NCBI GenBank assembly: GCA_964392445.1
Contig: CAYMPD010000019.1
Coordinates: 1 to 22,149, forward strand
DNA: 22,149 bases
DNA from: an uncultured archaeon
GTDB taxonomy: Archaea > Aenigmatarchaeota > Aenigmatarchaeia > CG10238-14
Direction: 5' to 3'
This document shows positions 1 to 1,447 of the stretch, piece after piece (the stretch's first letter is position 1; each line of letters begins with the position of its first letter). The translations under genes were made by a program, and so were the position numbers. The notes under the pieces were generated by a model that saw only the letters and a program-made list of their open reading frames with translations, was not told the DNA's origin and made no database searches.

Positions 1-1447
1 TAGCCCCCCTCGCGGAACCCAAATTTGACATTCCCATTAAGAGAGCGCCTCATTTAGACTCCACTCGGATGGCTTGACGGGCGGTGTGTGCAAGGCACAG
101 GGACATATTCGACGAACGATAATGACGTTTGTCTACTAGAAATTCCAGCTTCGCGAGGTTGAGTTACAAACCTCGATCCGTACTTAGTATAAGTTTAAGA
201 GATTGGCTTCCCCTCTCGGGGTTGCAACTCATTGTCTCATACATTGTAGGCCGCGTGTAGCCGGGGAAATTCGGGCCATACTGACCTACCGTCGCCTCCA
301 CCTTCCTCTGGTTTATCACCAGCGGTCTCCTATGAGTGCACTCTTGCGAGTTAGCAACATAGGATGGAGATCTCGCTCGTTAACGGACTTAACCGCACGC
401 TTCACAGTACGAGCTGACGATGGCCATGCAACTCCTCTCAGCTTGTCTGGTAAACCCTTCAGATTGACCTTCATCCTGCTGTCGATCCCCGTGAGATTTC
501 CGGCGTTGGATCCAATTGAACCGCAGCCTCCACTTCTTGTGTGTGCCCCCGCCAATTCCCTTAAGTTTCAACCTTGCGGTCGTAATTCCCAGGTGGCCCA
601 CTTAACACCTACGCTCCGGCACAACAAACCCTCGTAAGGTTTGTAGCACCAAGTGGGCATCGTTTACGCCTAGGACTAACGGGGTATCTAATCCCGGTCG
701 CTACCCTAGGTTTCGTCCCTCACCGTCGAACCTGTTCTAGGTGGACGCCTTCGCCACTGGTGGTCCCACTGGGATTATAGGATTTTACCCCTCCCCCAGC
801 AGTACCTCTACCCTCTCCCAGTCCCAAGTCTAGCAGTATCCCCAGCAAGCCTACTAGTTTTCCAGTAGATTTCACTAGGGACTTACAAGACCGGCTACGG
901 ACGCTTTAGACCAACTAATACCGGATACCACTTGAGGCGCAGGTATTACCGCTTACCGTTCTAAGAGTTATTAAACTCCCTAGAATGGCGGCTGGCACCT
1001 GTCTTACCCACCTCTTATTCTCCGAGCGATTTTGACTCGGTAAAAGCTTATGCAAAGCATAAGCACTCCAGATCCCCCCATCGTGCGTTAACACAGTGTG
1101 AAGGTTCCGCGCCTGCTGCGTCCCGTAGGACCTGGATTCATGTCTCAGAATCCATCTCTGGGCTTCCACTCTCATGGCCCATACCCGTTATAGCTTTGGG
1201 GGTACATTACGCCCCCAACAGGCTGATAAGGTGTAGTCCCATCCTAAAGCAACGGATTTTTCGGACGTTTTATCATTCCAGACCAAAACGTCTATCAGGT
1301 ATTAGCCTCAATTTCTCGAGATTATCCCTGACTTTAGGGTAGGTTAACTACATATTACTGAGCAGTACGTCGAGTCCCGAAGACTCTCAACTTGCATGGC
1401 TTAGTCGGATCCGGATAGCGGTATCCTCCGGCAGGATCAACCGGAAT
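1..1447 (-). rRNA. rrs: 16S rRNA, archaeal (3' end, roughly 50 nt including the anti-SD, lies outside the window)
   Basis: Minus strand begins ATTCCGGTTGATCCTGCCGGA at 1447. Conserved blocks: CCTACGGGACGCAGCAGGCGCG, GTGCCAGCCGCC/GCGGTAATAC, ATTAGATACCCCGTTAGTCC, AAACTTAAGGGAATTGGCGG, GCACACACCGCCCGTC. The window starts just inside the 1492R site. Confidence 0.99.
953..986 (-). other. 34-nt hairpin-type archaeal BHB intron in the 16S rRNA 530 loop (between E. coli-equivalent C526 and G527)
   Basis: Sense RNA reads GUGCCAGCCGCC[AUUCUAGGGAGUUUAAUAACUCUUAGAACGGUAA]GCGGUAAUAC. The intron folds into an 11-bp stem with one bulged G and a UAAU loop. Exon GCCG pairs with intron CGGU as the 4-bp central helix, flanked by 3-nt bulges CC|A and AA|G. 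Confidence 0.92.

What the first reader, a model, noticed from the sequence alone, without database searches (positions are those of the whole stretch)
953..986. 34-nt BHB intron in the universally conserved 530 loop of 16S rRNA, inside the 515F/519R primer site
Seen: the insertion falls exactly between C526 and G527 (E. coli numbering) with unambiguous boundaries. It has a textbook BHB: central helix GCCG/CGGU, bulges CC|A and AA|G, an 11-bp intron hairpin, and further exon pairing 516-519 with 529-532 after one A-C mismatch. The intron 3' end (CGGUAA) mimics the exon sequence it displaces. Established: archaeal rRNA introns are removed by the tRNA splicing endonuclease EndA, and G530 is essential for decoding, so splicing must occur. 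As I recall, published archaeal 16S intron catalogues (mainly Thermoproteales) do not list this position, which needs verification. There is no homing endonuclease ORF, so this is a minimal or remnant intron.
Basis: partly seen in the sequence, partly recalled or inferred. Interest (0 to 1): 0.82.

Follow-up and report, generated by a model that had tools for sequence, protein, structure and literature searches.

The report
Mini-intron splitting the 16S 530 loop
The only 16S rRNA gene of this small DPANN archaeon (Aenigmatarchaeota) is split in its decoding "530 loop" by a 34-base intron of the ordinary archaeal, enzyme-spliced kind; it is a gene-less leftover of a mobile intron, sits at a site I could not find catalogued, recurs in about 50 related species, and breaks the binding site of the widely used 515F survey primer.

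Summary
The 16S gene lies on the minus strand (window 1-1447). It carries one 34-nt insertion (953-986) exactly between C526 and G527.

The insert forms a canonical bulge-helix-bulge (BHB) motif:
- a 4-bp central helix, G521-G524 paired with intron CGGU;
- 3-nt bulges CC|A and AA|G;
- an 11-bp inner hairpin with one bulged G.
Cutting after the second base of each bulge restores the universal GCCGCC-GCGGUAA.

Inserts of 23-45 nt at the same site occur in 51 species-representative DPANN genomes (Micrarchaeota, Aenigmatarchaeota). All 48 distinct inserts start with A, 46 carry CGGU, and the hairpin covaries.

Two relatives carry 920-928-nt introns at the same site with matching ends and a LAGLIDADG homing endonuclease. 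The mini-intron is therefore best read as a deletion remnant.

The genome encodes one EndA and one RtcB, has one 16S copy, and has a perfect BHB intron in its 23S.

Splicing is inferred, not shown. The site is absent from the Thermoproteales catalogue of 13 loci and from every paper I could search. This scan has already reported the same kind of DPANN rRNA mini-intron at other sites on other DNA. Verdict: a new site and new lineages for a known kind of element, of moderate interest.

The parts
1..1447 (-). 16S (SSU) rRNA gene. Its 3' end (model positions 1431-1478) is cut off by the contig end. It is the only 16S copy found in the genome.
   Evidence: cmscan RF01959, 1333.6 bits, model 1-1430. 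Whole-genome search finds only this locus.
953..986 (-). 34-nt BHB mini-intron between C526 (window 987) and G527 (window 952).
   Evidence: 35-vs-1 insertion in the cmscan alignment. Sequence read. Homologous inserts at the same site in relatives.
989..992 (-). 5' exon strand of the BHB central helix (G521 C522 C523 G524).
   Evidence: Pairs 4/4 with intron CGGU.
986..988 (-). 5' bulge C525-C526|A(i1). The predicted 5' cut falls between window 987 and 986.
   Evidence: BHB geometry. Intron base 1 is A in 48/48 distinct homologous inserts.
959..985 (-). Intron hairpin (helix h'): 11 bp with one bulged G and a UAAU loop.
   Evidence: RNAfold. Constrained fold. The equivalent helix covaries across 48 inserts.
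955..958 (-). Intron strand of the central helix (CGGU).
   Evidence: CGGU in 46 of 48 distinct homologous inserts.
952..954 (-). 3' bulge A-A|G527. The predicted 3' cut falls between window 953 and 952.
   Evidence: BHB geometry. Joining the two exons restores GCCGCCGCGGUAA.
947..951 (-). 3' exon strand of the outer helix h. C528 is mismatched with A520. G529, G530, U531 and A532 pair with C519, C518, G517 and U516 (window 994-997).
   Evidence: Four pairs after skipping one position. All these bases are invariant, so no covariation test is possible.
946..998 (-). 515F primer site (E. coli 515-533), split by the intron into 12 nt (998-987) and 7 nt (952-946).
   Evidence: Sequence GTGCCAGCCGCC...GCGGTAA. 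Primer positions are from established knowledge.

Best explanation
The 34 nt are an archaeal protein-spliced (bulge-helix-bulge) intron in the pre-16S rRNA of an Aenigmatarchaeota (DPANN) archaeon.

Structure in the precursor. Exon bases G521-G524 pair with the intron's CGGU. The intron's own 11-bp hairpin stacks on one side. Exon pairs 516-519/529-532, continuing into the helix-18 stem, stack on the other. This leaves two 3-nt bulges on opposite strands.

Splicing (inferred). The tRNA-splicing endonuclease EndA cuts after the second base of each bulge, that is after C526 and after intron base 34. RtcB then joins C526 to G527 and probably circularises the intron. This restores the universal 530 loop before it folds into its pseudoknot.

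Origin. The intron is a homing-endonuclease-less deletion remnant of a mobile, roughly 920-nt LAGLIDADG intron that targets this site. In a single-copy rRNA gene, deletion can shrink the intron only down to the smallest unit that EndA still recognises.

Shown: the insertion, its BHB geometry, conservation and covariation across homologues, the full-length relatives, and the presence of EndA and RtcB. Inferred: that cleavage and ligation actually occur, and the order of events.
For: 1. Exact insertion at 526/527.

2. Canonical BHB: 4-bp helix, 3-nt bulges, cuts that regenerate the consensus. About 1 in 10,000 shuffles of the insert matches it.

3. Inserts of 12-42 nt at the same site (observed lengths 23-40 nt) in 51 DPANN 16S genes among GTDB species representatives. 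By NCBI title these are 29 Micrarchaeota, 10 Aenigmatarchaeota, 2 labelled Nano-/Woesearchaeota and 10 unnamed archaea. In addition, 23 of 371 genomes of the window's phylum carry an intron there.

4. Across 48 distinct inserts: base 1 is A in 48/48, CGGU is present in 46/48, and inner-helix pairs 1-6 are paired in 249/288 cells. Shuffling gives 174 +/- 6.5, and 0 of 2000 shuffles reach the observed value. Pairs 3-5 each use 5-6 different standard pair types.

5. Full-length versions at the same site. G008 has 928 nt (BHB 4/4, 13 inner pairs, 309-aa ORF, LAGLIDADG_3 E=1.7e-10). G335 has 920 nt (284-aa ORF). The two proteins are 40% identical. The G335 intron shares its first 13 nt and its UGCCAU...ACGGUAA end with the 33-nt mini-intron of G319.

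6. The genome has EndA, RtcB, many intron-containing tRNA genes, only one 16S gene, and a perfect BHB/LAGLIDADG intron in its 23S.

7. On a 16S tree the intron is clustered by clade but patchy within the genus: G000, G001 and G004 have it, G002 and G003 do not. This fits inheritance with occasional precise loss or gain.
Against: - No RNA data: removal and ligation are not demonstrated for any member of this intron family.
- The outer helix starts with an A520/C528 mismatch next to the 3' bulge, so the motif is not a strict hBHBh'. All its bases are invariant, so it cannot be tested by covariation.
- The MFE fold prefers a register shifted by 3.6 kcal/mol.
- The only EndA has Thr where the catalytic Lys of characterised EndAs sits. 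It aligns to K334 of the M. kandleri enzyme (PMC5829648). The whole order shares this feature, and these genomes also need EndA for their tRNA introns.
- No long form with the window genus's own ends (AUUCU...AGAACGGUAA) was found. Descent from a HEG-bearing intron is therefore inferred from relatives.
Confidence: 0.88

Rival explanations
1. EndA excises the insert but the halves are not religated, so the mature 16S rRNA is fragmented at the 530 loop. This would resemble bacterial intervening sequences, which are removed without ligation.
For: Nothing here tests ligation. Fragmented rRNAs exist in other organisms (general knowledge).
Against: RtcB is encoded. Characterised archaeal rRNA BHB introns are ligated (PMC4496867). 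A nick between C526 and G527 would cut the 530 pseudoknot in the decoding centre.
Confidence: 0.05
2. The 34 nt stay in the mature rRNA as a lineage-specific expansion hairpin of the 530 loop.
For: DPANN and CPR rRNAs are unusual, and no transcript data exist for this organism.
Against: A retained hairpin would not need an invariant first A, an invariant CGGU that pairs with the exon, or two 3-nt bulges placed so that excision regenerates the universal sequence. Insert length varies from 23 to 45 nt, and reaches 928 nt with an ORF at the same position. Close congeners lack it entirely.
Confidence: 0.03
3. Assembly or binning artefact, or an rRNA pseudogene.
For: The gene lies at a contig end of a 54-contig MAG.
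Against: Homologous but non-identical inserts occur in two congeneric genomes from independent studies and in 8 JGI contigs from several samples. The gene scores 1333.6 bits over model positions 1-1430 and is the only 16S in a 94.9%-complete genome.
Confidence: 0.01

Closest known systems
Small (<50 nt) hairpin-forming BHB introns of Thermoproteales, Desulfurococcales and Aigarchaeota 16S rRNA genes (Jay & Inskeep 2015, PMC4496867)
   Same: A non-coding hairpin under 50 nt in a highly conserved 16S segment. A BHB motif forms at the exon-intron junctions. HEG-encoding introns occur at the same or neighbouring loci. Universal primer sites are interrupted.
   Different: The locus, 526/527 in the 530 loop, is not among their 13 loci. 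The hosts are mesophilic, AT-rich DPANN lineages (Aenigmatarchaeota, Micrarchaeota), not thermophilic TACK archaea. The host EndA is a single 180-aa protein with a DPANN-type loop, not the (alpha-beta)2 enzyme.
LAGLIDADG-encoding BHB introns of archaeal rRNA genes (for example the 16S introns with homing endonucleases listed in PMC4496867; 23S introns of Desulfurococcus and Pyrobaculum, from my own knowledge)
   Same: The full-length forms at this site in relatives G008 and G335 are of this type: a BHB core plus a two-motif LAGLIDADG ORF. This genome's own 23S carries one.
   Different: The window's element has lost the ORF entirely (34 nt), so it cannot home by itself.
Canonical archaeal tRNA introns (BHB at 37/38)
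   Same: The same recognition motif, and presumably the same enzymes (EndA, RtcB), which this genome encodes.
   Different: The host RNA is rRNA. No sequence similarity to any other locus of the genome, tRNA introns included (blastn-short).
Insertions in rRNA genes of CPR bacteria (PMC11270868)
   Same: Small-genome episymbiont lineages whose rRNA genes are riddled with insertions, often carrying LAGLIDADG genes, that defeat universal primers.
   Different: Those are bacterial, often group I/II-like or of unknown removal mechanism. This one has the archaeal BHB signature.

Membership tests
Archaeal BHB (EndA-spliced) intron | 4-bp central helix flanked by two 3-nt bulges on opposite strands | tested here: met
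   G521-G524 pairs with intron CGGU. Bulges are CC|A and AA|G. The same holds in 46/48 distinct homologous inserts.
Archaeal BHB (EndA-spliced) intron | Cuts at the symmetric bulge positions join the exons into the functional (consensus) RNA | tested here: met
   Removing window 953-986 gives GUGCCAGCCGCCGCGGUAAUAC, identical to intron-less congeners and to the Rfam consensus.
Archaeal BHB (EndA-spliced) intron | Flanking helices h (exon-exon) and h' (intron) for a strict hBHBh' motif | tested here: inconclusive
   h' is 11 bp and covaries in homologues. h has 4 pairs, but only after an A520/C528 mismatch next to the bulge, and its bases are invariant.
Archaeal BHB (EndA-spliced) intron | Host encodes the splicing endonuclease and the RtcB ligase | tested here: met
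   EndA is 180 aa with PF02778+PF01974. RtcB scores 581.9 bits. Caveat: EndA has Thr at the position of the catalytic Lys.
Archaeal BHB (EndA-spliced) intron | Intron absent from mature RNA; excised intron often circular | not testable with these tools
   No transcript data. A species-specific scan of JGI contigs found nothing.
Mobile LAGLIDADG homing intron | Encodes a homing endonuclease | tested here: not met
   34 nt with no ORF. Relatives G008 and G335 do encode one at the same site. The window's element is therefore a derivative, not a mobile intron.
Group I / group II self-splicing intron | Catalytic RNA core (over 200 nt, Rfam models) | tested here: not met
   Only the SSU rRNA model matches in the window at gathering score. 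34 nt is far too short.

The most novel reading that the evidence does not exclude
The 526/527 mini-intron is not just decaying junk. It is kept by selection across DPANN phyla. One possible role is occupying the homing site, which makes the single rRNA gene immune to cleavage by the site-specific LAGLIDADG endonucleases circulating in these communities. Another is making small-subunit maturation depend on EndA, as an assembly checkpoint at the decoding centre. A lineage-specific EndA that has lost the canonical catalytic lysine and gained a Lys-rich loop would be part of that co-adaptation.
Probability: 0.1. Interest if true: 0.7.

Novelty: new member of a known kind. Interest (0 to 1): 0.42.

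Why it matters
Practical. The intron splits the 515F/519R site, the most used 'universal' 16S target. At least 51 species-level DPANN lineages, mostly Micrarchaeota and Aenigmatarchaeota, carry it. These lineages are expected to be missed or under-counted by V4 amplicon surveys and may confuse automated 16S extraction.

Biological. It adds the 530 loop of the decoding centre to the list of archaeal rRNA intron sites. It also extends that list from thermophilic TACK archaea to mesophilic DPANN. Long HEG forms, mini forms from 45 down to 23 nt and empty sites occur within one phylum (the 928-nt form, the window's 34-nt form and empty sites within one family), which makes a compact natural series for studying the homing cycle and the minimal substrate of EndA.

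It is not a new mechanism.

Tried and rejected
1. Transcript or empty-site evidence. A species-specific 52-nt exon pattern ending at C526 found 0 JGI contigs. I therefore have neither spliced RNA nor an intron-less allele of this species.

2. A long, HEG-bearing form with the genus-type ends. The scan with AGACAGGTGCCAGCCGCCATTCT gave 8 contigs, all mini-introns of 33-34 nt.

3. blastn-short finds only the intron itself plus chance 11-15-nt matches, so I rejected this here.

4. Rfam gives no family for the insert and no group I hit in the 16S or 23S.

5. The unconstrained MFE does not draw the BHB. It prefers a GCC/GGU register. I treated this as a limitation of energy models for bulges, not as evidence against the BHB.

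6. The BHB boundaries of the roughly 787-nt 23S insert could not be resolved; there are several weak candidates.

7. Castelle et al. 2015 (Curr Biol), which may list DPANN 16S insertions, is not held. Five full-text searches gave no paper that names a 526/527 or 530-loop intron.

8. Hit L036 (Acidilobaceae) and 11 bacterial hits of the pattern scan lack 16S context and lack a BHB. I treated them as chance matches; about 8 are expected from my own estimate.

9. I did not determine how many genomes of the phylum have an assembled, intron-less 530 loop. The 25/371 figure therefore counts pattern matches among all genomes, two of which look like chance.

Full report
**What is there**

The window's first 1447 bases encode, on the minus strand, an archaeal 16S rRNA (Rfam RF01959, 1333.6 bits, model positions 1-1430; the 3' end is cut by the contig end). 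The alignment shows one sizeable insertion, 35 nt against one model position, between UGCCAGCCGC and GCGGUAAUACC.

On the RNA strand the sequence reads GGUGCCAGCCGCC | AUUCUAGGGAGUUUAAUAACUCUUAGAACGGUAA | GCGGUAAUACC. GTGCCAGCMGCCGCGGTAA is the 515F primer and covers E. coli positions 515-533 (established knowledge). The insert (window 986->953) therefore lies between C526 and G527. The junction cannot slide, because the bases on either side of both junctions differ.

**Structure**

A direct test of BHB geometry gives:
- a 4/4 central helix (G521-G524 with intron bases 29-32, CGGU);
- two 3-nt bulges, C525-C526-A1 and A33-A34-G527;
- an inner hairpin of 11 bp with one bulged G and a UAAU loop;
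- an outer helix 516-519/529-532, after an A520/C528 mismatch, which continues into the helix-18 stem.

Cutting after the second base of each bulge and joining the exons gives exactly the universal sequence found in intron-less congeners.

Only 21 of 200,000 shuffles of the insert reproduce a 4/4 central helix with at least 5 inner pairs. The free MFE (-27.6 kcal/mol) is a register-shifted variant; the BHB-constrained fold is -24.0 kcal/mol.

**Who carries it**

The genome is a 1.2-Mb, 54-contig, 94.9%-complete MAG. Its congeners are named Candidatus Aenigm(at)archaeota in GenBank (L035 = G004, L050 = G001).

Among 61 relatives, 40 have the 16S region assembled and 9 of these carry an insert at precisely this site:
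- G000, G001 and G004 in the window's genus (34, 32 and 33 nt);
- five species of another family (23-37 nt);
- G008 (928 nt).

G002 and G003, in the same genus, have none.

A pattern scan of one genome per GTDB species (GTGCCAGCMGCC-N12-42-RCGGTAATAC) returned 63 loci. Of these, 51 are DPANN 16S genes. By NCBI title they are 29 Micrarchaeota, 10 Aenigmatarchaeota, 2 labelled Nano-/Woesearchaeota and 10 unnamed archaea. The other 12 lack 16S context and lack a BHB.

Within the window's phylum, 25 of 371 genomes match exon+AK. Of these, 23 are real introns (21 mini, 2 long). Eight JGI metagenome contigs carry the genus-type mini-intron, seven of them identical to the G004 allele. The element is therefore not an assembly artefact.

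**Comparative support for the BHB** (48 distinct inserts)

- The first base is A in all 48.
- The strand pairing with the exon is CGGU in 46.
- The last two bases vary (AA, AC, AU).
- The first six inner-helix pairs are formed in 249 of 288 cells, against 174 +/- 6.5 when 3' partners are shuffled (0 of 2000 shuffles reach the observed value).
- Pairs 3-5 each use 5-6 different standard pair types.

The sequences are related, so the shuffle count overstates significance. Even so, the hairpin sequences differ completely between clades while the geometry is kept.

**Origin**

G008 (same family) has a 928-nt insert at the same site. It starts AUGCUAGUAG and ends GUUAGCACGGUAA, with a BHB of 4 central and 13 inner pairs. 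It holds a 309-aa ORF with two LAGLIDADG-type motifs (LAGLIDADG_3, E=1.7e-10), and the ORF runs 47 nt into the 3' exon.

G335 has a 920-nt intron with a 284-aa homologue, 40% identical over 271 residues. Its ends, AUGCUAAUGGCAG... and ...UGCCAUUAGGACGGUAA, match the 33-nt mini-intron of G319 (AUGCUAAUGGCAGUUUUGCCAUCAACACGGUAA). The mini-introns are therefore best read as internal-deletion derivatives of a mobile intron family that targets 526/527.

On a 16S tree with the intron removed, the trait is clustered. All seven members of one clade have it. Within the window's genus it needs at least two changes, and G008's HEG-bearing copy sits in an otherwise empty clade. The 'same class' rows of that tree were chosen because they have the intron, so only the order-level part is unbiased.

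**Machinery**

The genome has one EndA homologue (180 aa, N-terminal plus catalytic domain, alpha4-like in architecture) and one RtcB. It has many tRNA genes with predicted introns.

Its 23S gene is 4554 nt against a 2987-position model and holds two large inserts:
- a 703-nt intron with a perfect BHB (4 central, 14 inner, 5 outer pairs) and a LAGLIDADG ORF;
- a roughly 787-nt insert with a 254-aa ORF of no Pfam family, whose boundaries I could not resolve.

One oddity concerns EndA. Aligned to the M. kandleri enzyme (5x89), it keeps the Tyr, the His and the recognition Arg, but has Thr where the catalytic Lys (K334; PMC5829648) lies. The whole order has Thr, Ser or Ala there, together with a Lys-rich 8-residue insertion between Tyr and His that resembles the DPANN 'L3' loop. 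These genomes depend on EndA for their tRNAs, so the enzyme is presumably active, but how is unknown.

**Mechanism** (inferred)

1. The BHB forms in the pre-rRNA.
2. EndA cuts after C526 and after intron base 34.
3. RtcB ligates C526 to G527 and probably circularises the intron.
4. The 530 pseudoknot can then fold.

No RNA evidence is available. A species-specific scan of JGI contigs found nothing.

Rivals are unlikely: excision without ligation (about 5%), retention as an expansion hairpin (about 3%), artefact (about 1%). The conserved cut geometry, the length range from 23 to 928 nt, the empty sites in congeners and the independent assemblies all argue against them.

**Comparison with the literature**

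- Small (<50 nt) hairpin BHB introns in 16S genes are a described class in Thermoproteales, Desulfurococcales and Aigarchaeota. The 13 catalogued loci do not include 526 (PMC4496867).
- A 2022 paper summarising archaeal 16S insertions lists only Crenarchaeota, Aigarchaeota and Micrarchaeota, the last at site 1093 (PMC8784108).
- That DPANN 16S genes can contain introns, and that BHB introns coexist with group I introns in DPANN rRNA genes, has been said in general terms (PMC7906910; PMC6125680; PMC5498576).
- I found no paper naming this site. Castelle et al. 2015 could not be read.
- Earlier notes of this scan report the same kind of DPANN rRNA mini-intron at other sites on other genomes.

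**Verdict**

This is a real, canonical BHB mini-intron. It represents a new site and new host lineages for a known kind of element. It has practical weight because it splits the 515F site in about 50 species-level lineages. I rate it of moderate interest.

Noticed in passing
L099:1501-6054 (= G000 contig C10:31610-36163, minus strand; outside the window): The genome's 23S rRNA gene is 4554 nt against a 2987-position model. It holds a 703-nt intron (L099:3442-4144) with a perfect BHB (4 central, 14 inner, 5 outer pairs) and a 212-aa LAGLIDADG ORF. It also holds a second insert of about 787 nt (~L099:4426-5212) with a 254-aa ORF that matches no Pfam family; I could not resolve that insert's BHB. 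No group I model matches.
   Followed up: partly
L004:1474-2016 (-) (= G000 contig C6; outside the window): The only EndA of the genome has Thr at the position of the catalytic Lys of characterised splicing endonucleases (RLAQNIRT against RLAHSVRK). It also has an 8-residue Lys-rich insertion between the catalytic Tyr and His. The position is Thr, Ser or Ala in the 20 of 30 relatives' EndA loci where my motif search matched, and some of these have Lys one residue later.
   Followed up: partly
L018, L021, L024-L028, L030, L033, L034 (16S genes of relatives in families f2, f3 and f5): The otherwise universal G527, the first base of the 3' exon, is A in several Aenigmatarchaeota clades (ACGGTAATAC or ACGGTAAGAC). 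This holds both with and without the intron. In the carriers the 3' bulge is AA|A or AC|A.
   Followed up: no
G036, G040, G042, G044 (16S genes of family f5 relatives; query positions ~507-509 of window:700-1300:-, i.e. opposite window ~793): These relatives have a further insertion of about 110-130 nt in the 16S gene at another site, seen as split BLAST matches. G025 and G032 matches stop at or before the 526/527 site, so they may hold long introns or contig breaks there.
   Followed up: no
L031:307-1236 (-): The LAGLIDADG ORF of the 928-nt intron in G008 does not stop inside the intron. It reads 47 nt into the 3' exon of the 16S rRNA, so its C-terminus is encoded by rRNA sequence. The 254-aa ORF of this genome's 23S insert likewise appears to run about 20 nt past the approximate insert boundary.
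   Followed up: no
whole genome G000 (aragorn -i): About 20 of 48 predicted tRNA genes are called with introns of 12-74 nt, several at non-canonical positions. Two calls have 4-base anticodons. The aragorn intron calls were not verified.
   Followed up: no
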